Positions 5,155 to 52,299 of a stretch of 64,000 nt of DNA are shown in pieces. The notes below the pieces were generated by a model, which was not told the DNA's origin, searched no databases, and worked only from the letters and a program-made list of their open reading frames with translations. The DNA comes from Spirochaetota bacterium. Lineage in GTDB: Bacteria; Spirochaetota; UBA4802; JAFGJZ01. Position numbers and translations under genes: made by a program. Location of the stretch: contig JAQIBV010000039.1 of NCBI GenBank assembly GCA_027858855.1, positions 18,544-82,543 on the forward strand, in the 5' to 3' direction. The first letter of the stretch is position 1. Every line of letters starts with the position of its first letter.

Positions 5155-5991
5155 ATGGTTGATCTTCATATACATAGTATTGGGTCCGATGGTATCTATT
5201 CAGTTGATGAATTAACTCTAATTGCTAAAGAGGCCGGTGTTGACGTGCTGTCACTAACTGATCATGATTCAATAAGTGGAATTGAAAAAATATTATCAGA
5301 TACATCGGCTGATTCTATTACGGTTATACCCGGTATTGAATTCAGCTGTCATTTTATACCGGGTGACTACCATCTGCTTGGGTACGGAATCGATCATCGC
5401 AATGAACAGTTGGTGAGCACTCTCGAGTTCTATTCTCAACAACGGCGTGAGCGAATTGAAGCTATGATTGAGAAATTAAATGCTATCGGTTTGAAAATTT
5501 CCAAAGAAGATATAGTTGCAAGTGGCCTAACGGATAGCCCCGGCAAACCACATATTGCCAGAGCGCTTATTAAAAAGGGTTATGTGAAGTCCGTATCAGA
5601 AGCATTTGAACTATATCTGGGAAGAAACGGTGTCGCAGATGTACCAAAACAGAAAATAACGCGTGAAGAGGCGTACCGGCTTATAGCTCTATGTGGGGGG
5701 TGTGCGGTTCTTGCTCATCCCGCTTCTTTAAGGTTAAAGGACTCTGATCTGGAAACTATTATCAAAGAGGATATCTCCCGAGGGTTATGCGGTCTTGAGG
5801 TTTTTGCACAAATGCACTCAGAAGAACAGGTTCTTAAATTCAGAGAGCTGGCAGAACGTTACGGATTATTTTTAAGCGGGGGGAGTGATTTTCATGGTGA
5901 TAAAGAAGAGACAATGGGATGTTATGGATCGAATCGTGTAGTCCCTGTTGATGCAGTTGCACCGCTTATTAATTATCTTAAAACTCTATAA
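5155..5991 (+). CDS. PHP-domain metal-dependent phosphoesterase (TrpH/YciV-like)
   Basis: MVDLHIHSIGSDG...LTDHDSISG PHP His/Asp metal-ligand motifs. Confidence 0.65.
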   Translation: MVDLHIHSIGSDGIYSVDELTLIAKEAGVDVLSLTDHDSISGIEKILSDTSADSITVIPGIEFSCHFIPGDYHLLGYGIDHRNEQLVSTLEFYSQQRRERIEAMIEKLNAIGLKISKEDIVASGLTDSPGKPHIARALIKKGYVKSVSEAFELYLGRNGVADVPKQKITREEAYRLIALCGGCAVLAHPASLRLKDSDLETIIKEDISRGLCGLEVFAQMHSEEQVLKFRELAERYGLFLSGGSDFHGDKEETMGCYGSNRVVPVDAVAPLINYLKTL

Positions 5992-8421: not shown

Positions 8422-8703
8422 AGAACTCCATTTGTTTATGTCATTATTAAAGTTTAATTTTCCGGGTCAAGTAAATTTAGTGATGATGTGAGTATCACTG
8501 AATTTGTTTTGTATTATTTATATGTGATTTTATCCCCAGCCGTGGCGGGTGGATAAATAAAAGCTGTACTCACTAATTCTTGATAAAAGGCAGAAATCAT
8601 TCACTTTGATATATCTATAAATATTATCGGGTTTGTTTTAAATTTTCTTTATAATTGAAGATTTTGAGATATGTTTCATAGTATGGATGCTCTCCTTTTT
8701 TCC

Positions 8704-8732
8704 TTGACGTAGCTACGTGACAAATATAGTAA
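8704..8732 (+). promoter_or_regulatory. Candidate sigma70-type promoter for the lol operon (TTGACG - 15/17 nt - TATAGT/TAGTAA) with a 12-bp palindrome ACGTAGCTACGT (8708-8719) in the spacer
   Basis: Hexamers read directly from the sequence about 45 nt upstream of the lolC/E start; palindrome overlaps -35 and spacer. Confidence 0.3.
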
Positions 8733-8773
8733 CAGGGGACTACCTCGCTGTTATCTTATCTATGGAGTAACAA

Positions 8774-10111
8774 ATGAGTCTGTACGAACTATTTATTGGC
8801 TTTAGATATCTCAAATCAAAGAAGCACCAGGCTTTTATCTCTTTCAATACTGTTTTATCTATTGGAATTGTGTTCTTAGGAGTTTTCATTCTGATACTTG
8901 TTATTTCTGTGATGAACGGTTTTCAGGCTCAGATTAAGGACAAAATTCTTGATATCGACTCACACATTACCGTCAACGGATATGATGGTATAAATTTTAA
9001 CTCAGGCATTGAGAACTACAGGTCGGTTACTGCAAAAATCCTTGAGAATCCGGATGTAGTTTCCGCGGTTCCCTACTTTCAGGAGGAGGGAATCCTTAAC
9101 TTTAACCGTAAAATATCGGGAGTGATGATTCGTGGAATCGGCTCGGAGGAGCACATGCCGGCAGATATTCAGAAGTTTATCGATGAAGCTCAGCAGGGTA
9201 TGGATTCACCCCAGAGGAAATTTACAGATAAAAACCAGGTTTATATAGGCAAAGAGCTTTCTGCCTTGAAGCAGATCTTTATTGGCGATACAATTGAAAT
9301 AATTGTGGCAAAACAGAATCAGGTCGACTCTTTTACCGGACTAAGCTCTTCGGCGCCCCGAATCGAGAAACTGAAAGTTGTCGGCTATTTTAAAACTGGT
9401 TACTACGACTTCGATACAAAAATGCTCATTACATCATTGCCAACCGCTCAGGAGATTTACGGCTTTGAGAACAAAGCGTGGGGTATTGGTGTTAAAATAC
9501 GGGACATATATCAGGTTAATCGTGTCGCTATAGAACTCCAGAATCAGCTCGGTTATGACTTTCAGACCTTTACCGTTGAAGACCGAAATGAAAATCTTTT
9601 TCATGCTCTAAATATTGAAAAACTTGTTATGACAGTAATTCTTTTCCTTACAATAATCTCGGCTGGGTTCACCATTATGGGAACGCTTGTTATGGTAGTC
9701 ATGGAGAAGCGTAAGGCAATAGGAATACTTAAGTCGCTCGGAGCACGACCATCATCAATTATGACCATTTTTATTCTGGAAGGATTTCTTATAGGCGTAA
9801 TTGGAACTGTAACCGGAATGTGTGCCGGTATTGTTGCCGCTTTGAATCTGGAATCTATAATTGTTTCTATAGAAGGATTTATTAATTATGTTGGAGACGC
9901 TATCTATACTGCTTTCAATCTTGGAATGTGGGTTAACAGGCATATTATTCCTACTCAGGTTTACTATATTGATGCGATACCCACCGAAATAAACCCAGAT
10001 TTTATAGTCTTTATTGCAGTTTTTGCTGTTTTTCTGGCTACTGTAGCCTCCATTTTTCCGGCATGGCATGCATCACGTTTAAAACCTGTGGAGACAATTC
10101 GTTATGAGTAA
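8774..10111 (+). CDS. lolC: Lipoprotein-releasing system permease, LolC/E family (FtsX-like)
   Basis: N-terminal MSLYELFIGFRYLKSKK... classic LolC/E start; 4 TM FtsX topology with large periplasmic loop; followed by lolD with 8-nt overlap. Confidence 0.8.
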   Translation: MSLYELFIGFRYLKSKKHQAFISFNTVLSIGIVFLGVFILILVISVMNGFQAQIKDKILDIDSHITVNGYDGINFNSGIENYRSVTAKILENPDVVSAVPYFQEEGILNFNRKISGVMIRGIGSEEHMPADIQKFIDEAQQGMDSPQRKFTDKNQVYIGKELSALKQIFIGDTIEIIVAKQNQVDSFTGLSSSAPRIEKLKVVGYFKTGYYDFDTKMLITSLPTAQEIYGFENKAWGIGVKIRDIYQVNRVAIELQNQLGYDFQTFTVEDRNENLFHALNIEKLVMTVILFLTIISAGFTIMGTLVMVVMEKRKAIGILKSLGARPSSIMTIFILEGFLIGVIGTVTGMCAGIVAALNLESIIVSIEGFINYVGDAIYTAFNLGMWVNRHIIPTQVYYIDAIPTEINPDFIVFIAVFAVFLATVASIFPAWHASRLKPVETIRYE

Positions 10112-10802
10112 TATTATAGAGATACGTAATCTTGAAAAAATTTATGGTATGGGGCGTAATGCTCTCCGTGTCCTTAATGGTATTGATCTTGATATCGGAC
10201 AGGGCGAGGTTGTCTCAATCGTGGGGGCTTCAGGTGCCGGAAAGTCAACGCTACTGCACTGTATTGGTTGTCTGGATACTTTTCAGCGTGGATCGCTTTC
10301 AATTAACGGACGTGAATTATCGGGATTTAATGTAGAAGAACTTTCCGGTTTCAGAAATCGCACAATGGGATTCATTTTTCAGGCGAATAATCTTCTGCCT
10401 GAATTTACAGCCCTTGAAAACGTCATGATTCCTCTTCTTATTCGTAGGATGAATAAAAAACGGGCAAAAGTTGAGGCACTGAAAGTTATCGAGCGCTTCG
10501 ATCTTTCCGACCGTCTTGATCATAAACCAGCTGAAATGTCTGGTGGCGAATGTCAACGAATTGCAGTAGCGCGAGCCATTGTAGGAAAACCGGCTCTTAT
10601 TCTGGCAGATGAACCAACCGGAAGTCTTGATAGTAAAAACTCCGAGATTCTTATCGACATTCTTTTTGACCTTGGACGCGAAAATAATTCAACAATAGTT
10701 ATTGTATCGCATGACCCGTTGATTGCGGCGAAAACAAAGCGAACAGTTCATATTGCAGATGGGAAAATAGTGGATAAAAAAGAAGCAGTGGAGGTTTTAT
10801 GA
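10104..10802 (+). CDS. lolD: Lipoprotein-releasing system ATP-binding protein LolD
   Basis: Walker A GASGAGKST, ABC signature LSGGECQRIAVARA, Walker B ILADEPTG. Confidence 0.85.
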   Translation: MSNIIEIRNLEKIYGMGRNALRVLNGIDLDIGQGEVVSIVGASGAGKSTLLHCIGCLDTFQRGSLSINGRELSGFNVEELSGFRNRTMGFIFQANNLLPEFTALENVMIPLLIRRMNKKRAKVEALKVIERFDLSDRLDHKPAEMSGGECQRIAVARAIVGKPALILADEPTGSLDSKNSEILIDILFDLGRENNSTIVIVSHDPLIAAKTKRTVHIADGKIVDKKEAVEVL

Positions 10803-12418
10803 AAATAGAATTTGTTGGTGCAGCTCGAACCGTAACGGGTTCGTCATATATTATAAAAAATGATAATTTTACTCTTATGGTCGATTGCGGAATGTTTCAG
10901 GGTAATCGTGAACTCAGGGATCGTAATCAGCTCAGCCTTATCTATGCCCCCCAGGAAATTGATGCCTTGCTGATCACTCATGCCCACATAGATCATAGTG
11001 GGCTTATTCCTAAATTAGTAAAAGAGGGTTTCGCGGGAAAAATTTTTGCCACAAAGGCAACCTGTGACCTCTTGCAGATTATGCTTCCCGACTCGGCTCA
11101 TATTCAGGAAATGGATGCCGAATTTGTTAATCGTCGCAATCGTAAACTGGGGCGTCCTCCTGTAGAGCCACTCTATACCCAGCCCGATGCATTAAAATCA
11201 CTAGATTACCTTAATCCTAAACCTTATGGTGAAAAATTTTCTGTTCATGAAGATATACAAGCTGTATTTCATGATGCAGGGCATATTCTTGGTTCTTCTT
11301 TTATAGAGCTTCTGGTAACTGAAAAGGGGAAAACAAAAAAACTGGTTTTTTCAGGTGACTTAGGTCCAAAAGATCAGGCTATTATTCGTAATGCAGAGGC
11401 CTTTAAAGGGGCTGACTATCTATTGATCGAATCTACTTATGGAAATAGGTTACATAAGAGCAAACCGGATACCTATGAAGAGTTTAAAGAGATCATTCAT
11501 GACGCCTATAATACAAAAGGAAATATCGTTATACCCTCATTTGCGGTTGAACGTACTCAGGAGATTATCTATACACTCGCACGGCTTTTTCAGTCAGGAG
11601 AAATTCCCAAAATTCCGACATATATCGATTCTCCTCTTGCAATATCTGCTACAGAAATTTTCCGTGAGAACAGTGAATGTTTTGATGACGAGACCCGTGA
11701 AATACTTGATAATGGCGGAACTCCCCTGGGTTTTCCTAACCTGCATTTAACAAGAACTACTCAGGAATCCAAAGATCTAACGCGAACAGCCCGCGGATCC
11801 ATCATCATTTCAGCTTCCGGAATGTGTACAGCTGGGCGCATAAAATATCATTTACAAAATAACCTGTTCAAACACGACTCAAGCGTCGTCTTTGTTGGTT
11901 ATCAGGCTGAGGGAACTCTTGGTCGTAAACTCGTAGATGGTGCAAAAGTTGTTCGTGTATACGGTGACGATGTTGTTGTAAATGCAAAAGTTCACACTTT
12001 GGGTGGTTTTTCAGGTCATGCCGATCGTGATCGTCTGCTTGAATGGATGGGAACCGGCGATAATCCTGACATGAAGGTTTTTGTAGTGCATGGAGAGCAT
12101 GAGGCATCCGAGAATCTTGCTTCACTTATACGCGATAAATACAAATTTACCACACTCGTACCAACCTGGGGTGAAATCGTAGATCTTGATACATTTGAAA
12201 TAACAAGAGCTTCGTATGGAGAACCGCTTATATCTCATACCGATCTTAAAGCAGATAGTGACTCAGCTATTACTGAAATAGAAGAGCTTATGAACCAGTA
12301 TATTGCTAAATATCGCGAAGTAACAAAGAATCCACAGATTGCAAAGGGTGAAGAGATTCAGTCAAATATAGCAGATTTAAAACAGATGATAACCATACTT
12401 AAAGACGAAATTTCATAG
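10799..12418 (+). CDS. Metallo-beta-lactamase / beta-CASP family ribonuclease
   Basis: MBL motif ITHAHIDHSG; beta-CASP-type architecture with C-terminal extension; ATGA overlap with lolD stop (translational coupling). Confidence 0.65.
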   Translation: MKIEFVGAARTVTGSSYIIKNDNFTLMVDCGMFQGNRELRDRNQLSLIYAPQEIDALLITHAHIDHSGLIPKLVKEGFAGKIFATKATCDLLQIMLPDSAHIQEMDAEFVNRRNRKLGRPPVEPLYTQPDALKSLDYLNPKPYGEKFSVHEDIQAVFHDAGHILGSSFIELLVTEKGKTKKLVFSGDLGPKDQAIIRNAEAFKGADYLLIESTYGNRLHKSKPDTYEEFKEIIHDAYNTKGNIVIPSFAVERTQEIIYTLARLFQSGEIPKIPTYIDSPLAISATEIFRENSECFDDETREILDNGGTPLGFPNLHLTRTTQESKDLTRTARGSIIISASGMCTAGRIKYHLQNNLFKHDSSVVFVGYQAEGTLGRKLVDGAKVVRVYGDDVVVNAKVHTLGGFSGHADRDRLLEWMGTGDNPDMKVFVVHGEHEASENLASLIRDKYKFTTLVPTWGEIVDLDTFEITRASYGEPLISHTDLKADSDSAITEIEELMNQYIAKYREVTKNPQIAKGEEIQSNIADLKQMITILKDEIS

Positions 12419-12492
12419 ATGTGATCTCATAGATGTGATCTCATAGATGTGATCTTATAGATGTAATCTCATAGATGTAATCTCATAGATGG
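12414..12492. repeat. Tandem direct repeat, 14-bp unit CATAGATGTGATCT x 5.6 (3 identical copies, then TATAGATGTAATCT, CATAGATGTAATCT, partial CATAGATGG)
   Basis: Read directly; first copy contains the TAG stop of the upstream gene; last partial copy runs into the GGAG Shine-Dalgarno of the downstream gene. Confidence 0.9.
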
Positions 12493-12501
12493 AGCTAATT
12501 T

Positions 12502-13578
12502 ATGCCCGGGCTTATTGAAACCATAACGGATCCGCAGCATTTTCAGAGAATATTCTACGATTTTTTTCTCAAGGGTGAAGTCTATCTGAAAACTGCAAGT
12601 GGTAATTTCAAAATCCATTTTTTAGGATACACGAATGGGCAAGCGGCTCTTAAAATTCCTATTATTAAAAATATGCCGCCTTCCTGTGTCATACTCTGTC
12701 GGATTCCTGGTGAAACAATTTATGCACAGTTAAAACTTATCGAGAAACAGGAAGACGAGAATTATCTTTTATCACCAGTAAAAATTCAGATCATCAGTGC
12801 TGCCCGTAACGAACCCCGTCGTTCCATATCGGGTAAGGGCAAACAGCTTCTCTTTGTAACCAAGGTAATTTCGGACTCAATAATTGAACGATCGATTGCA
12901 TTTGATCAACGTAAAGCTGATCTTGCAAAACAGAAAGTTTCCGATCAACTTCAAACTATGTTTGCTTTTAAAAAGATCTATTTTTCTAATGAGGGAACAA
13001 GCGATGACCGGATGCGTTATTTTTATTCACGCAAAGCCGACTATCTTATTCCCGATTTCAAATCACTTGATCTTAAAAATCCGGTTCAACAGGAATTTAA
13101 TAATTCAATCTTGAGCAAGGATTACTATATTCAAAACCGCGGAACAGTAACGTCAGAAGCCTCTGCAGCAATCTATTACCGGAGTGCAATTCCCTTCGGA
13201 TATATTCAGGTAAATCATAGCAAAAAACTCAATCAATCAGTACTTGATGTTATTAAAAATCTTTCAATGCAGCTATCCAGGATTCTTATATCGGCTAAAA
13301 TATTTAAACCGCTAGATGAAAATCTTTTGGTCAGTGATCTATCAGAAAAGGGTGTGGGTATTGTTTTTCGTGAACGCTCCTACATCCGTTTTTTCCCAGA
13401 AAAAAGTTATGTTCACTTTGAACTTATACTTCCCGATCAGATTCATATTCCTATGCTGACAATTGTCAGGAATATTACATTTCTGGATAATAAAGTAATT
13501 AAAGCCGGATGTGAAATTATTTCAATTGACGATAGTGCAAAGCAGGTATACAATCATTTTCTTGATTCAATCAAGTAG
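12502..13578 (+). CDS. Hypothetical protein with degenerate PilZ-like motifs (possible c-di-GMP effector)
   Basis: RNEPRR (RxxxR-like) and DLSEKGVGIV (DxSxxG) motifs, but non-canonical spacing; GGAG RBS 7 nt upstream. Confidence 0.3.
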   Translation: MPGLIETITDPQHFQRIFYDFFLKGEVYLKTASGNFKIHFLGYTNGQAALKIPIIKNMPPSCVILCRIPGETIYAQLKLIEKQEDENYLLSPVKIQIISAARNEPRRSISGKGKQLLFVTKVISDSIIERSIAFDQRKADLAKQKVSDQLQTMFAFKKIYFSNEGTSDDRMRYFYSRKADYLIPDFKSLDLKNPVQQEFNNSILSKDYYIQNRGTVTSEASAAIYYRSAIPFGYIQVNHSKKLNQSVLDVIKNLSMQLSRILISAKIFKPLDENLLVSDLSEKGVGIVFRERSYIRFFPEKSYVHFELILPDQIHIPMLTIVRNITFLDNKVIKAGCEIISIDDSAKQVYNHFLDSIK

Positions 13579-13598
13579 CCTGAGAGGTTATATTTAAT

Positions 13599-15416
13599 TT
13601 GAATCTTTACAATCTTTTCGACTACAAACTTAAAATAGCTCTTCTTGAAGATGATCCGATTATTCTTCAGGATATTAGTTCCATGCTCGAATCGCTGGGA
13701 CATTCCGTAGTTGCGACCTATCTTTCAGGTGAGGCTATGCTTGAAGAGTATCAGTATCTTCAATGTGACCTCTTTGTGCTAGATATCGAACTTAAGGGCG
13801 AAAAAAACGGTGTAGATGTTGCAGTCGAGATGCAAAAAACACGTTCGGTCCCTCTAATTTACCTTACATCCTATTCTGATGATGAAACTGTAACCAGAAT
13901 TCTTAAGACCGATCCCTATGGTTTCATTCTGAAACCAGCACGAAAAGATCATCTTCGTATCGCAATTAACATTGCCTATTACAAGTTTTTGTCAGATAAA
14001 AGGATTCGGGAAAGTGAACAGCGCTACCAGAGTATTGTTAAAACATTGCCTCTGATGCTGGCTCGAATAAACCCTATAAACGATTTTGTTACCTTTTGCA
14101 ATGATAATTTTAAGGATCACTTTTTTGATCCAACAGGAAAATTTCAAATAAACTTTTTTGATAAAATGGAGAAAATAGGCTTTGCAGATCTTATAGATGT
14201 TTTTCCGAGTTTAAGCCGGGTTGACAACGGAGTTACTAAAGAGTATCAGGTTAATCGTAAAGATAAACAGCACTATTACAAAGTTATATGCCAGGCATTA
14301 TACGATTCTGAAGGAAGTCTGTTCGAGTATCAGTTTTTATGTGAAGACATAACCAGAATTAAAGAGCGTGAACAAAAGATACAGGCATATAGTAGCGAGC
14401 TTGACAAACGAATCCGGGAACTAAAATGCTTGTATAGCATTTCACGTGTACTTGAAAACAGCCGTAATATCAGTAAAATATTGCAAAGAGTTGTTGATGA
14501 GGTAGCGCTTGCTCTTAATGATTCTCAAAATGTCTCCTCCTGTGTTGAGTATGGCGTCGAATCTTTCTACTCCTATAATTTTTTCACAAGTTTCTCAGTC
14601 TTTACTCATCCCATTATTGTTCGGGGAAGTATAGTCGGTCAGATTCATCTACATGTGGTTGAATCTGTGGATCGTTCGGAACTATTTAACAATGGAGAAC
14701 TGGACCTTCTGATCACTGTTTCCGACATGATCAGTAAAATTGTTGAAAAGATTGAAGCTGAAGAGCAGCTCAAAAAACTTGAAAAAGAGATAATCATGAC
14801 CAGCGAACGTGAAAAACAGAATCTGGGTCACGAACTACATGATGGAATAGGTCAGATACTTACAGGAACAAGTTTTATTTTAAAATCATTGGAAAACAAA
14901 TTAGCTAAATCAGGTGATGTGCCGCAAGAACTCACAGATGTTATTGAACTAGTAAAAGATGCTACATCAAAATGCCGCCGTTTATCAAAAGGGCTAGTTC
15001 CGGTCTCCTATTCAAATGAAACCTTTGTCTATCTTGTTGAGCAGTTACTGCATAGCACAAATCAGCTTTACAATGTAAATTTTGAGCTTGACATTCCTGA
15101 AAATTTTGACATTAAAAACAGCTTTGTAACATCACAGCTTTACCGAATTGTGCAGGAAGCTGTTAATAACACCGTTAAACATGCTGACGCTACGAAAATT
15201 ACTCTTCGTCTTGAAGATGAGAATGAATGGGTTCGTCTTGCGATATCGGACAATGGGCATGGTCTTAAAACACGTGGTAAAGACGCAGGGTTGGGGATGA
15301 ATATAATGAAATATCGTGCAGATTTGATCGGCGCTAATTTTGATGTAATCATGGAAGAAAAAAGTGGAACAACTGTTGTGGTCCGATTGCCACGTGATCT
15401 TATTGTTTATGAATAA
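13599..15416 (+). CDS. Hybrid sensor histidine kinase: N-terminal receiver (REC) + PAS-like + HisKA_3 + HATPase_c (NarX/DegS type); TTG start
   Basis: REC (KIALLEDDPII...LFVLDIELKG...K); HisKA_3 H-box EKQNLGHELHDGIGQIL; HATPase N/G boxes (VNNTVKHA, DNGHGL, GLGMNIMKYRADLIG). Confidence 0.75.
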   Translation: MNLYNLFDYKLKIALLEDDPIILQDISSMLESLGHSVVATYLSGEAMLEEYQYLQCDLFVLDIELKGEKNGVDVAVEMQKTRSVPLIYLTSYSDDETVTRILKTDPYGFILKPARKDHLRIAINIAYYKFLSDKRIRESEQRYQSIVKTLPLMLARINPINDFVTFCNDNFKDHFFDPTGKFQINFFDKMEKIGFADLIDVFPSLSRVDNGVTKEYQVNRKDKQHYYKVICQALYDSEGSLFEYQFLCEDITRIKEREQKIQAYSSELDKRIRELKCLYSISRVLENSRNISKILQRVVDEVALALNDSQNVSSCVEYGVESFYSYNFFTSFSVFTHPIIVRGSIVGQIHLHVVESVDRSELFNNGELDLLITVSDMISKIVEKIEAEEQLKKLEKEIIMTSEREKQNLGHELHDGIGQILTGTSFILKSLENKLAKSGDVPQELTDVIELVKDATSKCRRLSKGLVPVSYSNETFVYLVEQLLHSTNQLYNVNFELDIPENFDIKNSFVTSQLYRIVQEAVNNTVKHADATKITLRLEDENEWVRLAISDNGHGLKTRGKDAGLGMNIMKYRADLIGANFDVIMEEKSGTTVVVRLPRDLIVYE

Positions 15417-15443
15417 GCAGAATTACAATCCTTCGGGGGAAAA

Positions 15444-16079
15444 ATGGATATAATGATAATTGACGATCATCCTGTGGTACGCAAAGGTATAAGGTCTATC
15501 CTTGAAAGCGAAGAGGATCTTCATGTCACTCTTGAGGCTGAAAGTGCAGCTGAAGCAATGGAAAAAATTTCCGGTAAAAAGCCCGATTTAGTGATTGTGG
15601 ATATAGAACTGAAGGGTGCTGAAAACGGCGTTCAACTGATTAAAATGATAAAGACTGCTTATCCGGAGATAACCTCTCTTGTTATGTCGATGGATGATGG
15701 TAGTCTTTATGCGGAGCGTGCGATTCGAGCAGGGGCACTTGGTTATGTCGCAAAAGAGGAGGCCTCCGAAAAAATTGTCAGTGCGATTAGACAGGTAATG
15801 AGTGGGGAGCTTTATCTTAGTTCCAAACTTTCGCATATAATTGCCTCAACCCATGTTATGGGTAATTCTATGCTGGATGTTAACCGATTATCGAACAAAG
15901 AGTTGGAGATATTCAAACTGATTGGACAGGGCTACAAAAGGAGTGAAATCTCAAAGCAGATGAGCATGAATATTAATACAATTGAGTCGCATCGACGAAA
16001 AATTCGGGAGAAATTCAATATTAAAAATTCTTCTGACCTTTCGAGGCTTGCTGTCAAGTGGTATGTAGAATCACAGTAG
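15444..16079 (+). CDS. NarL/LuxR-family response regulator (REC + LuxR-type HTH)
   Basis: REC (IMIIDDHPVVRKG...DLVIVDIELKG); C-terminal LuxR HTH (LSNKELEIFKLIGQGYKRSEISKQMSMNINTIESHRRKI). Confidence 0.85.
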   Translation: MDIMIIDDHPVVRKGIRSILESEEDLHVTLEAESAAEAMEKISGKKPDLVIVDIELKGAENGVQLIKMIKTAYPEITSLVMSMDDGSLYAERAIRAGALGYVAKEEASEKIVSAIRQVMSGELYLSSKLSHIIASTHVMGNSMLDVNRLSNKELEIFKLIGQGYKRSEISKQMSMNINTIESHRRKIREKFNIKNSSDLSRLAVKWYVESQ

Positions 16080-24418: not shown

Positions 24419-24530
24419 TTACGGATGCCTCCTTTTGTTGTAGTCTCTTAATCTAATTGTCGGCAGATGCTCCAGTGTATGTACATATATTTTGGTATCC
24501 TCTGTAAATTAACTGTGGTATAACTGCAAT

Positions 24531-24566
24531 ACCATGCATGGTATGCATACCATGCATATAATGCAT
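24531..24566. promoter_or_regulatory. Array of four ATGCAT hexamers at exact 9-bp phase (24534, 24543, 24552, 24561) forming overlapping palindromes ACCATGCATGGT / GGTATGCATACC, overlapping a perfect TATAAT (24557-24562) about 100 nt upstream of recC
   Basis: Read directly from the sequence. Confidence 0.5.
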
Positions 24567-24663: not shown

Positions 24664-27600
24664 ATGCCACTTTATCTGTACCAGAGTAACCGCATCGAGA
24701 ATATAATCCCGCCATTGGCAGAAGCGTTACAAAGTCACTCTTCTGATGAAAATCTATTGGCAACCGATTACTGTCTGGTTCAGAGTATAGGTATGGGGCG
24801 CTACTTCGCCCTCGAGTTGGCAGGTTGTTCATCAATATTTGCCAACTATCGTATGGTTTACCCAAATGCTTTTTTGCAACTGCTGGCTTCGCATCATGGT
24901 ATTCGTGACCAGGTAGCTACCAAAGAGCAGATTGGCTGGAAAATATTCTCACTCATGAAATCGGGCTCTGTTAGCCATCCAGCACTCGAACACTACTGTG
25001 ATGGTTCGGATGATCTGAAACTTTTTACCTCTGCATATGCACTAGCCGATATCTTTGATCAATACGCGATGTATAGACCGACTATGGTTCAAGCCTGGGA
25101 CGAGGGACATGCCATTAAAATTGATAAAGGACAAACCGGTTCTCTTGATGTACAGGATGAGTGGCAATACATCTTATGGCGTCAGATATTCGATGGTACA
25201 ATGAATCATAAAGCCTCTTTTCAGAAGGAGGTAATTGCTTCAATTTCAAGCATTAGTGATCTTCCCTTTAAACGGCTTTTTATTCTCGGGGTATCTACGA
25301 TTCCTCTATTCTTTCTTGAAGTTATACATCATATATCACAATTCTGTAATATTCATGTAGGACTATTGGCTCCCTCTGGTGACTATTGGGAGGATATTGT
25401 AAACAAGAAGTACCGTTTTTTTACAGCACTGAATCAGCAGGCTTCTGTTGATATTTCGGACTATTTTTTTACCGGCAATACAATTTTAGGGTCTAACGGA
25501 ATGCTGGGGCGTGACTTCAATCAAATTTTATCTGATTATTTCGGAGATGAACTTGGAATTGACAGGGGAGATTTTTTCGAAGATGAACCTGATACAATAC
25601 TGGGTAACATACAACGCGATATCCGTGAGCTTAATGACCGTGGAATTTTTGGAGACAAAGAGGGTGCTAAATTTATTCGTCATGAGAGTGATCGTTCCCT
25701 TCAGATACATGGCGTGCACTCGAAGCGGCGAGAACTTGAAATTCTGCATGATACTCTGCTGGATATACTTAACAACGACAGTTCAGTAGAGCTTCGTGAT
25801 ATTCTGGTTATGACTCCGGCCATCAATGACTATGCGCCCTACATACAGGCCGTCTTTAATGAGTTCCGGGGCAGTGAATCGTTTCTTGACTTTTCAATTG
25901 CCGACCTTTCCCTTGCGACAGATAGCGAAACCGTACCCGCTTTTTTAAAGATAATCGCTCTTTATCGCACCCGTTTTACATGCAGTCAGATTGTCTCACT
26001 TCTGCGCTACCGTCCGCTTACAGAAAAAGCTGGTATTCCTGAAGATGAAATAGAGCGTGTTGGATTCTGGTTGCACGAGGCTTCATTTTGCTGGGGGCGT
26101 AATGCTGAAGATAGAAAAAAACTGTTGAATGTCAGTTATGATGAATACTCCTTGTCATTCGCACTTACTCGGCTTCTTCACGGTTATCTTTTCCCTCGTA
26201 ATTACGATCAAACCTTCGAAGACGTTTTCCCTTCCGGTGATTTCGAGGGAGAGCAGGCTATTTTAATGGGAAAGCTGATAGCGTTTGTTTCGCGTATCGA
26301 GCAGTTTACCCACAGTTGCGAAGAGCTACGCAGCTGTTCCGGTTGGGAGTCCCTTCTGCATGATCTGGTTCACGACCTCTTTTCAGATAATGACAATTAT
26401 GCAGAATCGCGTGAAATGCTTTTCTCGTCAATATCACGTTGTACATCCGCTTCTGATTCTATCTGTTCGGATGAGGTTCCATTTGAGATTATAGCACATC
26501 TTTTAGATACTCAATTAACTACAGAGAGCCGGGCTTTCGGTTTCATCGATGGACGCATCACTTTCTGTGAAATGTTGCCGATGCGGTCGATTCCCTTTAA
26601 GGTGATTGCAATTATCGGTTTTAATGAAAGCGACTTTCCTCGTGCGGCAATGAGAAACAGCTATGACCTGATTCATCGGTATCCACGAACAGGTGATCGT
26701 TCAACAAGATATGATGATCGATATCTTTTTCTTGAGACACTTCTTTCGGCTCGAAAGTTTTTATACTTCAGCTTTCAAGCCTATAAGGAGAGCGACAATA
26801 GTCGACTGTTTCCTTCACCATTGATTTCAGAATTACTACATTATCTTGAAGAAAACTGTGAAAATTTCAACGCCGCCGAATTTATTCTGTATCATAAGTT
26901 GCAGCCATTTTCTGCAGATTATGTAGCGACACGTAAAACGAATAGTAGTGAAAAAGATTCATCTGATTATTTTACCTACGACAAACGTCAGCCTCATAGG
27001 GCCCAGATCTATTATAAAAGTAAAAAAAATAAATCTGTATTTATATCAGATTCTATTACTTCAGAACCGGAATCTGCATCATTTCACCTTACACTCACAT
27101 CCTTAAAACGATTTTTCCAAAACAGTTCCCGCTTTTTTATGCAGCAACGTCTTGGTATCAGGTTTACCATCAGCTCTGATGAATATGAAAACAGTGAGCC
27201 ATATCAGATGTCAAAAGGAACCAGACGTTCATTGATCTTAACAATGGTTGAAGAGATTATTTCTGATAAAAAAATCAAGTCTGATAAAAAAACACTTCGC
27301 ATGAATGCTATTTTGCCACTTTTCGCTCCGGGAGATGCTGAGTATAGTTCTATAACAGCAGAGGCACACGATCTTTATGACCGGCTTTCATCTGAAACCA
27401 ATGTCACCACCTTTTCAAATTGTGATGCTAGGTTCAGCACTGACGGAAAAGAATCAACAGATACAACTCGATCGGTTCTGGTTACAGGCATATTTGATTT
27501 AGTAAACAGTGATGGACACTTTGTTCTCTTTCCATCGCCAAGAAAGCAGGCTGATCGTGAAATTGCTGGTTGGTGGCTGGAACATCTGCTCTTTCAATTT

Positions 27601-28017
27601 TCAGATGCCGACTGCAGGCGCAGCACGATTTTACTCTCTGACACCAAAATAACCTTTGAACAACTCGACAGAGATGTTGCGACTCTGTTTTTGAAGGGAA
27701 TTATATCGCTTTATGAAGATGGTCTCTATTATCCTTTGCGATTTGACTCTGCTGACTCCTATATGTTATACAGGGAAAGTCTTGATAGTGATAAAGATAT
27801 CTCTGATATTCTTGAAACAATAAAATATAAGAGTGGTGCCAGGTATGGTACTGACACCATCTATAATGATTATATAAAGAAGACCCAACAATACCGTCAA
27901 ATCTGCTTTCCTGATTCTGATATTTTTTATTCCCAACAGTTCACCGAATGCTCATTACGCTTTTTCAAAGGAATAAACGGTTATTTTTCCGAGTTGATGG
28001 AGGTTGAGAATGTCTGA
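24664..28017 (+). CDS. recC: Exodeoxyribonuclease V gamma subunit RecC
   Basis: N-terminus MPLYLYQSNRIENIIPPLAEAL resembles RecC N-termini (MLRVYHSNRLD...); size 1117 aa; operon with recB/recD. Confidence 0.85.
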   Translation: MPLYLYQSNRIENIIPPLAEALQSHSSDENLLATDYCLVQSIGMGRYFALELAGCSSIFANYRMVYPNAFLQLLASHHGIRDQVATKEQIGWKIFSLMKSGSVSHPALEHYCDGSDDLKLFTSAYALADIFDQYAMYRPTMVQAWDEGHAIKIDKGQTGSLDVQDEWQYILWRQIFDGTMNHKASFQKEVIASISSISDLPFKRLFILGVSTIPLFFLEVIHHISQFCNIHVGLLAPSGDYWEDIVNKKYRFFTALNQQASVDISDYFFTGNTILGSNGMLGRDFNQILSDYFGDELGIDRGDFFEDEPDTILGNIQRDIRELNDRGIFGDKEGAKFIRHESDRSLQIHGVHSKRRELEILHDTLLDILNNDSSVELRDILVMTPAINDYAPYIQAVFNEFRGSESFLDFSIADLSLATDSETVPAFLKIIALYRTRFTCSQIVSLLRYRPLTEKAGIPEDEIERVGFWLHEASFCWGRNAEDRKKLLNVSYDEYSLSFALTRLLHGYLFPRNYDQTFEDVFPSGDFEGEQAILMGKLIAFVSRIEQFTHSCEELRSCSGWESLLHDLVHDLFSDNDNYAESREMLFSSISRCTSASDSICSDEVPFEIIAHLLDTQLTTESRAFGFIDGRITFCEMLPMRSIPFKVIAIIGFNESDFPRAAMRNSYDLIHRYPRTGDRSTRYDDRYLFLETLLSARKFLYFSFQAYKESDNSRLFPSPLISELLHYLEENCENFNAAEFILYHKLQPFSADYVATRKTNSSEKDSSDYFTYDKRQPHRAQIYYKSKKNKSVFISDSITSEPESASFHLTLTSLKRFFQNSSRFFMQQRLGIRFTISSDEYENSEPYQMSKGTRRSLILTMVEEIISDKKIKSDKKTLRMNAILPLFAPGDAEYSSITAEAHDLYDRLSSETNVTTFSNCDARFSTDGKESTDTTRSVLVTGIFDLVNSDGHFVLFPSPRKQADREIAGWWLEHLLFQFSDADCRRSTILLSDTKITFEQLDRDVATLFLKGIISLYEDGLYYPLRFDSADSYMLYRESLDSDKDISDILETIKYKSGARYGTDTIYNDYIKKTQQYRQICFPDSDIFYSQQFTECSLRFFKGINGYFSELMEVENV

Positions 28018-51405: not shown

Positions 51406-52299
51406 ATGAGTAGAAAAAATGATCGCATAAACAGGGGTCTACCTATGAAACAGTCACTATCGGTGCCATCCGAAGCAATTGATATCTACAACAATGCGCT
51501 CAACTTTTCAAATATGGGGAAATATGATGTAGCTCTTAATGAGTACAAACGAGCCATATCAATATACCCGCAATTTCTGGAAGCATATAATAACATTGGT
51601 GAAATATATTCGAAAATGGGTGACTTCTCAAATGCAATAACTACCTATGAAGAAGCATTGACAATTTCACGAAACGACCGTGTTTTACTCAACATTGGTG
51701 TTGAGTACTATAATCAGCAGAAGTATGATAAAGCTCTCGTTTACTTTAAAGATTCCATCTCTATCAATCCCGGCTTTCTTGAGAGCCATTTTTATGCAGC
51801 GATGGCCTTTTTTAATAAAGAGGATTATAATAGCGCAGTAACCCATTTTCAAAAAGTAATAAACTTCGACCAGCGACATCTGAAAGCTAACTATCTTCTT
51901 TCATACATATACTATGAGTGGAAACAGTATCGGAATGCTGCTACCTGTCTTGAACGAATCATGGATATTGCAGATGATAAACAGTTTGTTAACCGTTATT
52001 ATGGTTTTTGCATGTATCATCTTGGTAATTATGATAAGGCTGTTGACTATCTGCAAGTAGCCCTGAAAGAGAATCCGGCATATTCCCGCTTCAAAAATTA
52101 TCTTTCATCCCTTACATACGAAAACAAGATTAAGGAAGTCGGTGATGTTAAAGAAAAAATAAAAGAGATGGAGGCAAAGGTGATGCACAAAGATTCTAAA
52201 CCATCATTGAAGGAGTACAGCCGTTTGTCGATGCTCTATATTTTTAATGGAGAATATAAAAAAGCCGAAGATCTCTTAACTTCATATAAATTACAGTAG
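51406..52299 (+). CDS. Tetratricopeptide-repeat (TPR) protein
   Basis: Multiple 34-aa W-LG-Y/A-F-A-P repeat units (AYNNIGEIYSKMGDFSNAITTYEEAL etc.). Confidence 0.7.
   Translation: MSRKNDRINRGLPMKQSLSVPSEAIDIYNNALNFSNMGKYDVALNEYKRAISIYPQFLEAYNNIGEIYSKMGDFSNAITTYEEALTISRNDRVLLNIGVEYYNQQKYDKALVYFKDSISINPGFLESHFYAAMAFFNKEDYNSAVTHFQKVINFDQRHLKANYLLSYIYYEWKQYRNAATCLERIMDIADDKQFVNRYYGFCMYHLGNYDKAVDYLQVALKENPAYSRFKNYLSSLTYENKIKEVGDVKEKIKEMEAKVMHKDSKPSLKEYSRLSMLYIFNGEYKKAEDLLTSYKLQ

What the first reader, a model, noticed from the sequence alone, without database searches (positions are those of the whole stretch)
12414..12492. 14-bp tandem repeat array (5.6 copies) bridging the stop codon of the beta-CASP RNase gene and the Shine-Dalgarno of the PilZ-like gene
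The unit CATAGATGTGATCT occurs as three perfect copies, then two variant copies (G to A in the unit, one C to T), then a partial copy. The first copy supplies the TAG stop of the upstream gene. The last partial copy runs into the GGAG RBS of the downstream gene (ATG 12502). The unit length is not a multiple of 3 and lies in a 83-nt intergenic gap.

Possible roles:
- an iteron-like direct-repeat operator for a DNA-binding regulator;
- a copy-number-variable (slipped-strand) element that tunes promoter/RBS spacing of the downstream c-di-GMP-effector-like gene, i.e. phase variation.

The copy variants suggest ongoing repeat turnover.
Basis: seen in the sequence. Interest (0 to 1): 0.55.

Follow-up and report, generated by a model that had tools for sequence, protein, structure and literature searches.

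The report
Young variable 14-bp repeat between operon genes
A real 14-base tandem repeat sits between two co-transcribed genes of an uncultured Leptospira-like spirochaete; it arose recently from the stop-codon/ribosome-binding-site junction and differs in copy number between near-identical populations, so it is an ordinary hypervariable bacterial repeat with no evidence yet that it is a regulatory switch.

Summary
Window 12414-12492 holds 5.6 head-to-tail copies of CATAGATGTGATCT, by far the strongest tandem repeat in the 64 kb. Copy 1 contains the TAG stop of a beta-CASP/RMMBL gene. The last partial copy contains the GGAG of a YcgR-type PilZ gene.

Comparison shows what it is. The closest species has the same six-gene operon but only TAG-ATGGAG-N5-ATG at this junction. 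Deleting exactly five units (70 nt) makes the window collinear with it. Four further relatives also lack the array.

A sister metagenome carries the same genes with 100% identical flanks. Its array is different and longer (at least 7.6 copies, 10 full units as scaffolded), and the assembler broke inside it. So this is a young variable-number tandem repeat (VNTR).

It cannot change either protein or the SD-ATG spacing. It only moves the upstream stop from 2 nt to 72 nt or more from the SD, which should abolish termination-reinitiation coupling (inference from published E. coli/Haloferax data).

I found no promoter, terminator, stable RNA or DNA fold, Rfam family or second copy of the motif. An operator role is not supported. 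A phase-variation role is untested and is not of the classical type.

Interest is low to moderate. It is a new member of a known kind.

The parts
10799..12418 (+). Upstream gene: 539-aa metallo-beta-lactamase / beta-CASP / RMMBL ribonuclease-type protein. It overlaps the preceding ABC ATPase gene by 4 nt.
   Evidence: ORF list. Pfam: Beta-Casp 1.3e-38, RMMBL 4.3e-16, Lactamase_B 6.6e-13.
12416..12418 (+). TAG stop codon of the beta-CASP gene, inside repeat unit 1. It is ancestral: the same TAG-ATG-GAG context occurs in L004.
12414..12492 (+). 14-bp tandem array of 5.6 copies: three CATAGATGTGATCT, one TATAGATGTAATCT, one CATAGATGTAATCT and the partial CATAGATGG.
12422..12491 (+). The 70 nt (exactly 5 units) that are extra relative to the closest species. 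Removing them restores TTTCATAGATGGAG, collinear with L004. The placement of the 70 nt within the array is arbitrary in register.
   Evidence: gapped pairwise alignment and collapsed alignment
12419..12480 (+). Five one-codon start-stop mini-ORFs: ATG-TGA at 12419, 12433 and 12447; ATG-TAA at 12461 and 12475. Each is preceded in frame by TAG. With a period of 14, stops fall in all three frames.
12489..12518 (+). Sixth ATG, in the last partial unit. It opens a 9-codon ORF (MELIYARAY*) that overlaps the PilZ-gene start out of frame. A similar 7-codon ORF exists in L004. Its significance is unknown.
12491..12494 (+). GGAG Shine-Dalgarno of the downstream gene, 7 nt before its ATG. It lies outside the variable part of the array.
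12502..13578 (+). Downstream gene: 358-aa DUF1577 / YcgR-type PilZ protein. It has an N-terminal YcgR-N-like barrel, RxxxR at 102-106, a GAF-like insert, and a PilZ barrel with DxSxxG at 279-284.
8774..16079 (+). Six-gene same-strand cluster that contains the array: FtsX-type permease, ABC ATPase, beta-CASP, PilZ-like protein, hybrid REC-HisKA_3 kinase, REC-GerE regulator. Its other gaps are -8, -4, 20 and 27 nt. The same order occurs in L004.

Best explanation
The array is a recently born, slippage-prone variable-number tandem repeat (VNTR). It expanded out of the stop-codon/Shine-Dalgarno junction between two co-transcribed genes of an uncultured Leptospirales bacterium.

**Origin (inferred).** The ancestral junction was ...TCR-TAG-ATGGAG-N5-7-ATG. 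A 14-bp unit made of 8 nt of that junction (CATAGATG) plus 6 nt (TGATCT) was duplicated between two copies of the 8-mer. It was then amplified by replication slippage or unequal recombination. The terminal partial copy is the signature of this process.

**Dynamics.** Expansion and contraction continue. Two populations with identical flanks carry different arrays, with expansion of C...G units in one and T...G units in the other.

**Function.** The array is an untranslated spacer of variable length within a polycistronic mRNA.
- Shown: it cannot alter either protein or the SD-ATG spacing.
- Shown: it moves the upstream stop codon from 2 nt to 72 nt or more from the SD.
- Inferred: this should abolish termination-reinitiation coupling, leaving translation of the PilZ gene dependent on de novo initiation at its own GGAG-7nt-AUG.
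- Inferred: coupling is already lost at about 20 nt, so the further difference between 5.6 and 8-10 or more copies is probably nearly neutral.
For: **The repeat is real and exceptional.**
-. No comparable array occurs in 301 kb of related loci.

**It is specific to this lineage.**
- L004 (beta-CASP 85% aa identity, PilZ-like 78%) has the same operon but the junction TCG TAG ATG GAG TATTT ATG.
- Removing exactly 70 nt aligns the window to L004.
- L005, L006, L012 and L014 have gaps of about 0, 6, 29 and 77 nt with no array.

**It is hypervariable.**
- L001/L003 (JGI 3300051639) encodes identical beta-CASP and PilZ-like proteins.
- Its flanks are 100% identical over about 1.7 kb on the left and about 4.1 kb on the right. 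Every difference lies inside the array.
- That array reads C-G, at least four T-G units, 100 N, at least 3.3 T-G units, T-A, C-A, partial. It has 10 full units as scaffolded, and at least 7.6 copies if the contig ends overlap.
- The window and L002 both have 5.6 copies.

**It lies inside an operon.**
- The other gaps are -8, -4, 20 and 27 nt.
- There is no promoter-like or terminator-like site at the array.

**No structure or family was found.**
- RNA fold z = +0.8; DNA fold z = +1.0; no Rfam match at E <= 1.

**The motif is not dispersed.**
- It is absent elsewhere in the window, in 80 other loci and in viral contigs.

**Distance dependence of coupling.**
- Huber et al. 2023 (PMC10666635) report that intergenic distances of about 20 nt almost completely abolish termination-reinitiation in E. 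coli and Haloferax.
Against: - Only two allelic states were seen, and both come from short-read metagenome assemblies.
- The longer allele is interrupted by a 100-N scaffold gap. The same contig has a second N gap in a non-repeat gene, so its exact copy number is unknown and that assembly is patchy.
- Near-neutrality is an inference. No expression data exist.
- Both kinds of variant unit keep the in-frame TAG-ATG-stop arrangement (TGA to TAA, CATAG to TATAG). This could hint at constraint, although two substitutions carry little weight.
- Co-transcription is inferred from spacing and synteny and has not been shown.
- The coupling data come from E. coli and Haloferax, not from spirochaetes.
Confidence: 0.6

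Rival explanations
1. The array is a contingency locus or rheostat. Reversible copy-number change tunes expression of the PilZ-type c-di-GMP receptor, and perhaps of the kinase and regulator downstream. It would act by changing intercistronic mRNA length, mRNA stability or processing, polarity, or access to the SD. This would give population heterogeneity in c-di-GMP signalling.
For: - The array is hypervariable between populations whose flanks are identical.
- It lies immediately 5' of the SD of a signalling gene.
- Published examples of repeat length controlling expression exist. The listed abstract of PMC8295292 describes a variable G-repeat in the H. pylori tlpB mRNA leader targeted by the sRNA RepG. 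PMC12817950 describes promoter tandem-repeat copy-number variation in M. tuberculosis.
Against: - The repeat is not inside an ORF and not between promoter hexamers.
- SD-ATG spacing is unaffected by copy number.
- No RNA structure sequesters the SD.
- Coupling should already be lost at 5 copies (PMC10666635), so extra copies have no obvious lever.
- No other repeat-controlled loci occur in the window.
- No expression data exist.
Confidence: 0.2
2. The array is an iteron-like operator. The direct repeats, each containing the palindrome AGAT-N3-ATCT, would be binding sites for a DNA-binding regulator such as the LuxR/GerE response regulator of the same cluster or the MrkH-like PilZ protein.
For: - Each unit carries a 4-3-4 palindrome, and the palindrome occurs 5 times in the array.
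- A GerE-type regulator is encoded 3 kb downstream.
- The closest structural match of the PilZ protein is MrkH, described in its PDB entry as a c-di-GMP-dependent transcription regulatory factor.
Against: - The array is absent from the orthologous junction in every relative that keeps the same regulator genes.
- It varies in number and sequence between near-clonal populations.
- The motif is absent from the operon's upstream region and from the rest of the 64 kb.
- There is no promoter nearby to regulate.
- The 14-bp period puts successive sites on different helix faces (inference).
Confidence: 0.05
3. The array is a start-stop relay. Every unit reads UAG-AUG-UGA (or UAA) in frame. A ribosome terminating at the beta-CASP stop could re-initiate on the adjacent AUG and terminate at once. 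It would repeat this every 14 nt and so be handed along to the genuine SD-AUG. The array would then preserve or meter translational coupling across a variable spacer.
For: - There are five AUG-stop mini-ORFs, each 8 nt from the previous stop, and the first is directly adjacent to the gene's UAG.
- Both variant substitutions keep the stop-start-stop pattern.
Against: - The AUGs have no SD.
- The pattern is inherited automatically, because the unit is a copy of the ancestral TAG-ATG junction.
- Two substitutions are too few to show constraint.
- Huber et al. (PMC10666635) argue that post-termination scanning is rare, if it occurs at all.
- The sixth AUG opens an out-of-frame 9-codon ORF across the real start. 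That would compete with initiation at the real start and would not help it.
Confidence: 0.05
4. The array is a GATC methylation-dependent epigenetic switch, like pap or agn43. The G-type units each carry a GATC site (3 in the window, at least 8 in the sister allele), and their methylation state would control binding of a regulator.
For: - GATC is present in each CATAGATGTGATCT unit and is lost in the two G-to-A variant units (read directly from the sequence).
Against: - There is no promoter context.
- The array is absent in relatives.
- GATC frequency in the window is unremarkable: 239 observed against 227-284 expected.
- No Dam-type methylase or cognate regulator was identified (not searched exhaustively).
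Confidence: 0.03

Closest known systems
Bacterial intergenic VNTR / minisatellite loci (the kind used for MLVA typing, e.g. in Leptospira interrogans and Mycoplasma; PMC4641467, PMC2585094)
   Same: - Head-to-tail copies of high identity in non-coding DNA.
- Copy number differs between otherwise near-identical strains.
- Variant units and a partial terminal unit are present.
- No dedicated machinery is needed beyond replication slippage or recombination.
   Different: - The 14-bp unit is, from my own knowledge, shorter than the Leptospira MLVA units.
- It lies inside an operon, exactly between a stop codon and the next SD.
- Its origin from that junction can be read directly by comparison with a sister species.
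Simple-sequence contingency loci / phase variation by slipped-strand mispairing (Neisseria, Haemophilus, Campylobacter; promoter tandem-repeat CNV in M. tuberculosis, PMC12817950)
   Same: - A hypermutable tandem repeat next to a gene whose dosage could matter (a c-di-GMP receptor).
- Alleles differ between near-clonal populations.
   Different: - It is not within an ORF, so there is no frame switching.
- It is not between or upstream of recognisable promoter elements.
- SD-ATG spacing is unchanged by copy number.
- No expression states have been shown.
Variable repeat in an mRNA leader giving graded translation (H. pylori tlpB G-repeat / RepG sRNA, PMC8295292)
   Same: - A length-variable repeat in the untranslated mRNA just upstream of a signalling gene within a co-transcribed unit.
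   Different: - The H. pylori element is a homopolymeric G tract targeted by a known sRNA.
- Here the unit is 14 nt, no partner RNA is known, and no structure is predicted.
TAACTGA heptamer direct repeats just upstream of start codons in Beggiatoaceae, Cyanobacteria and Bacteroidetes (PMC4679880)
   Same: - Stop-codon-rich direct repeats in tandem within a few nucleotides of a start codon or SD, including inside operons. A post-transcriptional role has been proposed for them.
   Different: - The sequence and period differ (14 against 7).
- The Beggiatoaceae genome has 169 sets, whereas this motif is single-locus as far as can be seen.
- The motif here is not shared with relatives.
De novo, rapidly evolving perfect tandem repeats in Borg elements (bioRxiv 10.1101/2022.05.18.492195)
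   Same: - Recently formed, near-perfect arrays that arise independently at single sites.
- The paper's abstract describes these arrays as rapidly evolving.
   Different: - Borg repeats are pervasive throughout the element. This is one isolated array in a bacterial chromosome fragment.

Membership tests
Bacterial VNTR / tandem simple-sequence repeat locus | Head-to-tail copies of one unit with high identity, beyond chance | tested here: met
   TRF gives period 14, 5.6 copies, 95% matches and score 137. No shuffle out of 100 reaches the observed count.
Bacterial VNTR / tandem simple-sequence repeat locus | Copy number is polymorphic among closely related genomes while the flanks are conserved | tested here: met
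   The window and L002 have 5.6 copies. L001/L003 has at least 7.6 copies (10 full units as scaffolded), with 100% identical flanks. Caveats: there is a 100-N gap in the longer allele, and only two allelic states were seen.
Bacterial VNTR / tandem simple-sequence repeat locus | The orthologous site in relatives carries zero or one copy (recent local origin, not a conserved element) | tested here: met
   L004 has the junction TAGATGGAG with no repeat, and the window aligns to it after deletion of exactly 70 nt. L005, L006, L012 and L014 also lack it.
Phase-variable contingency locus | The repeat is placed where a length change switches expression: inside an ORF (frame) or between/adjacent to promoter hexamers | tested here: not met
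   The array lies wholly between the stop at 12418 and the SD at 12491. No promoter-like hexamer pair is in or around it. SD-ATG spacing is independent of copy number.
Phase-variable contingency locus | Alternative expression states correlate with repeat number, and switching is reversible within a clone | not testable with these tools
   No reads, transcriptomes or isolates are available.
Iteron / direct-repeat operator | The repeats are conserved as binding sites in relatives that keep the regulator and the target | tested here: not met
   The same operon with the kinase and regulator is present in L004, but no repeat is there.
Iteron / direct-repeat operator | A cognate protein binds the unit | not testable with these tools
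   This needs EMSA or footprinting. The motif is not found at other plausible targets in the 64 kb.
TAACTGA-type heptamer repeats (PMC4679880) | Heptamer TAACTGA in direct repeats at many intergenic sites per genome | tested here: not met
   The unit is a 14-mer, CATAGATGTGATCT, and there is a single locus in the window and in 85 loci. The whole genome was not available.
Dam/GATC methylation switch (pap/agn43 type) | GATC sites within regulator-binding sites overlapping a promoter, plus Dam and a competing regulator | tested here: inconclusive
   GATC is present in the G-type units. There is no promoter. The methylase and regulator were not searched for outside the cluster.
Structured cis-regulatory RNA (riboswitch, leader, attenuator) | A stable or conserved secondary structure, or a match to a known family | tested here: not met
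   RNA MFE z = +0.80 against shuffles. No Rfam match at E <= 1. No terminator-like site.

The most novel reading that the evidence does not exclude
The array is not neutral. It is a translational metering device: a variable-length chain of one-codon start-stop cistrons (UAG-AUG-UGA/UAA every 14 nt). The chain would relay or trap ribosomes leaving the beta-CASP gene. Slippage-driven copy-number change would then set the coupling ratio between an RNase-type enzyme and a c-di-GMP receptor, and would generate population heterogeneity in signalling.
Probability: 0.06. Interest if true: 0.6.

Novelty: new member of a known kind. Interest (0 to 1): 0.25.

Why it matters
This is a clean natural example of how a bacterial tandem repeat is born. 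Comparison with a sister species shows the exact pre-repeat sequence, a stop/SD junction. It also shows that an integral number of 14-bp units was added, and two near-clonal populations already carry different arrays.

It also marks a place where an ancestral, tightly spaced and probably translationally coupled gene pair has been pulled apart without touching either ORF or the SD. That makes it a simple natural test case for the distance dependence of coupling in spirochaetes.

On the practical side, it is a strain marker for this uncultured Leptospirales lineage and a site where short-read assemblers break. If copy number did affect the PilZ receptor and the downstream two-component genes, it would be a new position for a contingency repeat, intercistronic instead of promoter or ORF. 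Nothing here shows that.

Tried and rejected
- **Metagenome scan for the repeat.** A two-unit pattern found 0 hits, and a protein-based scan with the PilZ-like protein also found nothing. That collection evidently lacks the source samples, so these scans say nothing about dispersal or further alleles.
- **Viral contig scan.** 0 hits.
- **Exact-protein look-ups with four cluster proteins**. They returned only two JGI contigs, so no further alleles were obtained.
- **Homologue search for intermediate relatives**. Nothing lies between 100% and 78% identity, so the time of origin cannot be narrowed.
- **Promoter and terminator scan**. Nothing at the array. A manual look at TAATCT and TATAGA as possible -10 elements found no usable -35.
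- **RNA and DNA folding**. The array is no more stable than shuffles, so riboswitch, attenuator and hairpin-promoted slippage ideas were dropped.
- **Rfam**. No match.
- **Palindrome AGAT-N3-ATCT as a dispersed operator**. Apart from the array there is only one hit, at 51750. The operon's upstream region 8422-8773 has none.
- **GATC statistics**. Uninformative.
- **MAFFT alignment of the junction**. It misplaced the gap and was replaced by an affine-gap pairwise alignment.
- **Coding potential of the array.** Rejected, because stops occur in all six frames.
- **PDB sequence search with the PilZ-family profile**. No significant hit; the fold search was needed instead.
Full report
**1. The observation**

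- CATAGATGTGATCT three times
- TATAGATGTAATCT
- CATAGATGTAATCT
- CATAGATGG (partial)

Tandem Repeats Finder gives period 14, 5.6 copies, 95% matches, no indels and score 137. Every other array in the 64 kb scores 57 or less. The 14-mer with up to 2 mismatches occurs six times, against 0.74 expected, and five of those hits are the array.

The upstream ORF 10799-12418 ends with TAG at 12416-12418, inside unit 1. GGAG is at 12491-12494 and the next ORF starts at ATG 12502, leaving an 83-nt gap.

**2. Context**

The array lies in a same-strand cluster of six genes:
- FtsX/MacB-type permease, 8774-10111
- ABC ATPase, 10104-10802
- Metallo-beta-lactamase/beta-CASP/RMMBL protein, 10799-12418
- A 358-aa protein, 12502-13578
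- A REC-HisKA_3-HATPase kinase, 13599-15416
- A REC-GerE regulator, 15444-16079

The other junctions are -8, -4, +20 and +27 nt, so the 83-nt gap is the outlier. There is no promoter-like or terminator-like site at the array.

The 358-aa protein gave no Pfam hit on its own, but other evidence identifies it:
- 11 of 28 homologues hit PilZ and 5 hit DUF1577.
- The family alignment has invariant R102 and R106 (RxxxR) and invariant or near-invariant D279, S281 and G284 (DxSxxG).
- An AlphaFold model (pLDDT 87.4) matches two-domain YcgR-type c-di-GMP receptors best: MrkH, PP4397, MotI, YcgR and VCA0042. A second tier of phytochrome PAS-GAF-PHY hits suggests a GAF-like insert.

The organism is an uncultured Leptospirales/Spirochaetes bacterium (record titles; source name).

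**3. What comparison shows**

The closest species in the genome collection is L004 (Spirochaetes bacterium Zod_Metabat.857). Its beta-CASP protein is 85% identical and its PilZ-like protein 78% identical, and it has the same six-gene order. Its junction is TTTCG TAG ATG GAG TATTT ATG, an 11-nt gap with no tandem repeat.

An affine-gap alignment places one gap in L004 directly after TAGATG, spanning the inserted units. Deleting exactly five units (70 nt) from the window gives TTTCATAGATGGAGCTAATTTATG. That sequence is collinear with L004 apart from a 2-nt indel between the SD and the ATG.

Four more distant relatives that keep the gene pair have gaps of about 0, 6, 29 and 77 nt and no array.

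So the stop codon and the SD are ancestral neighbours, and the array was added between them in this lineage. The unit is 8 nt of the old junction (CATAGATG) plus 6 nt (TGATCT). The terminal 'partial copy' is simply the second copy of the 8-mer. This is the usual signature of a duplication seeded between two short direct repeats and then amplified by slippage (inference).

**4. Variability**

Exact-protein look-ups found the locus in two JGI metagenome assemblies with adjacent sample numbers.
- L002 (3300051640) has the same array as the window.
- L001/L003 (3300051639) encodes identical beta-CASP and PilZ-like proteins and is 100% identical to the window in about 1.7 kb on the left and about 4.1 kb on the right. 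Every mismatch lies inside the array.

The array in L001/L003 reads: CATAGATGTGATCT, four TATAGATGTGATCT, 100 N, ATCT, three TATAGATGTGATCT, TATAGATGTAATCT, CATAGATGTAATCT, CATAGATGG.
- Taken at face value, that is 10 full units plus whatever lies in the gap.
- If the two contig ends overlap maximally, it is still 7.6 copies, and of a unit type (T...G) that the window lacks.

The assembler breaking exactly here fits an array longer than the k-mer, or length heterogeneity among the reads. This contig also has an N gap in a non-repeat gene, so I do not lean on that argument.

The conclusion that holds is this: the array changes far faster than the surrounding sequence. Only two states were seen, both in short-read assemblies.

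**5. What it can and cannot do**

- The first unit fixes the stop, and the SD plus its 7-nt spacer lie beyond the variable part. Copy number therefore cannot change either protein or the SD-ATG distance (read directly).
- The array is non-coding on both strands. Stops fall in all frames because 14 is not a multiple of 3.
- It is not predicted to fold: RNA z = +0.8 and DNA z = +1.0 against shuffles.
- It matches no Rfam family.
- The motif and its internal palindrome AGAT-N3-ATCT do not recur upstream of the operon or elsewhere in the window, apart from one unrelated hit. They do not occur in 80 loci from other genomes or in viral contigs.

What the array does change is the distance from the upstream stop to the SD, from 2 nt in L004 to 72 nt or more. 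Huber et al. (PMC10666635) found in six gene pairs of E. coli and Haloferax that about 20 nt of separation almost abolishes termination-reinitiation coupling.

By inference, the ancestral pair was coupled and this lineage has lost the coupling. The PilZ gene would now rely on its own GGAG-7nt-AUG. On that logic the step from 0 to 1-2 units mattered, and the present variation between 5.6 and 8-10 or more copies is probably close to neutral.

**6. Rivals**

- **Contingency or rheostat role.** This cannot be excluded, because variability is real and the neighbour is a signalling gene. However, the repeat is in none of the classical switching positions, and no lever is visible in the sequence.
- **Operator or iteron.** This is contradicted by the absence of the array in relatives that keep the regulators, by its instability, and by the lack of a promoter.
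- **Start-stop relay.** Each unit reads UAG-AUG-UGA in frame, and both variant substitutions keep the pattern (UGA to UAA; CAUAG to UAUAG). This allows the speculative relay model. But the pattern is inherited automatically from the copied TAG-ATG junction, and the AUGs have no SD.
- **GATC methylation.** Three GATC sites occur at 14-bp spacing, and at least 8 in the sister allele. That recalls Dam-dependent switches, but there is no promoter context or other support.

**7. Comparison with what is known**

The array meets the defining features of a bacterial VNTR: tandem identity, polymorphism between close relatives, and absence at the orthologous site. It fails the positional criterion of classical phase-variation loci and the conservation criterion of operators.

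The closest functional analogies are:
- length-variable repeats in mRNA leaders (H. pylori tlpB/RepG, PMC8295292);
- the TAACTGA heptamer repeats just upstream of start codons in Beggiatoaceae (PMC4679880);
- promoter tandem-repeat copy-number variation in M. tuberculosis (PMC12817950).

It is not a member of any of these.

**8. Verdict**

The feature is real and correctly described, and its variability is supported. It is most likely an ordinary, young, slippage-driven intercistronic VNTR whose main consequence is to uncouple two formerly adjacent cistrons. It is a new member of a known kind, of low to moderate interest (0.25). Its main value is as a clearly resolved example of repeat birth at a stop/SD junction and as a strain marker. 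The most novel reading I cannot exclude, a start-stop relay or translational rheostat, has a probability of about 6%.

Noticed in passing
window 12502-13578: The DUF1577-type protein appears to be a YcgR-like c-di-GMP receptor with an unusual layout. It has an N-terminal YcgR-N-like barrel, then RxxxR (R102, R106), then a GAF-like domain of about 150 aa inserted before the PilZ barrel that carries DxSxxG (279-284). The top structural match is MrkH, described in its PDB entry as a c-di-GMP-dependent transcription regulatory factor. Pfam does not detect PilZ in this member.
   Followed up: partly
window 24519-24566: There is a 16-bp perfect palindrome, ATACCATGCATGGTAT, within a degenerate period-9/18 repeat. 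It lies about 100 nt upstream of a 1117-aa ORF (24664-28017) and looks like an operator.
   Followed up: no
window 12489-12518; L004 about 5621-5644: An ATG directly after the beta-CASP stop opens a short out-of-frame ORF across the PilZ-gene start. It reads MELIYARAY* here and MEYLCLR* in L004. It is present in both species, so it predates the repeat. Its meaning is unknown.
   Followed up: partly
L001 865-1016 (= L003 2742-2893): A second scaffold gap of 152 N interrupts the ABC ATPase gene in the 3300051639 assembly, with mismatches and indels next to it. That assembly is patchy, which limits what its gap inside the repeat can prove.
   Followed up: yes
window 10799-12418 (residues about 465-539): The beta-CASP protein has a C-terminal tail of about 75 aa that is matched only in spirochaete homologues. 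Most non-spirochaete homologues align to residues 1 to about 455-530 only, most of them ending near 460-470.
   Followed up: no
whole window: The tetranucleotide CTAG is strongly depleted: 28 observed against about 84 expected from trinucleotide frequencies. The other 4-bp palindromes are near expectation, apart from GGCC (80 observed against 112 expected).
   Followed up: no
window 12495-12501 versus L004: The SD-ATG spacer is 7 nt here (CTAATTT) and 5 nt in L004 (TATTT), a 2-nt indel right next to the repeat.
   Followed up: no
window 8642-9105 versus L002: The window is not identical to either JGI contig. It has five substitutions against L002, clustered at 8647-8653 and 9069-9105 near a 10-N gap in L002. 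It therefore probably comes from a third assembly, the 152.8-kb NCBI MAG contig listed.
   Followed up: partly
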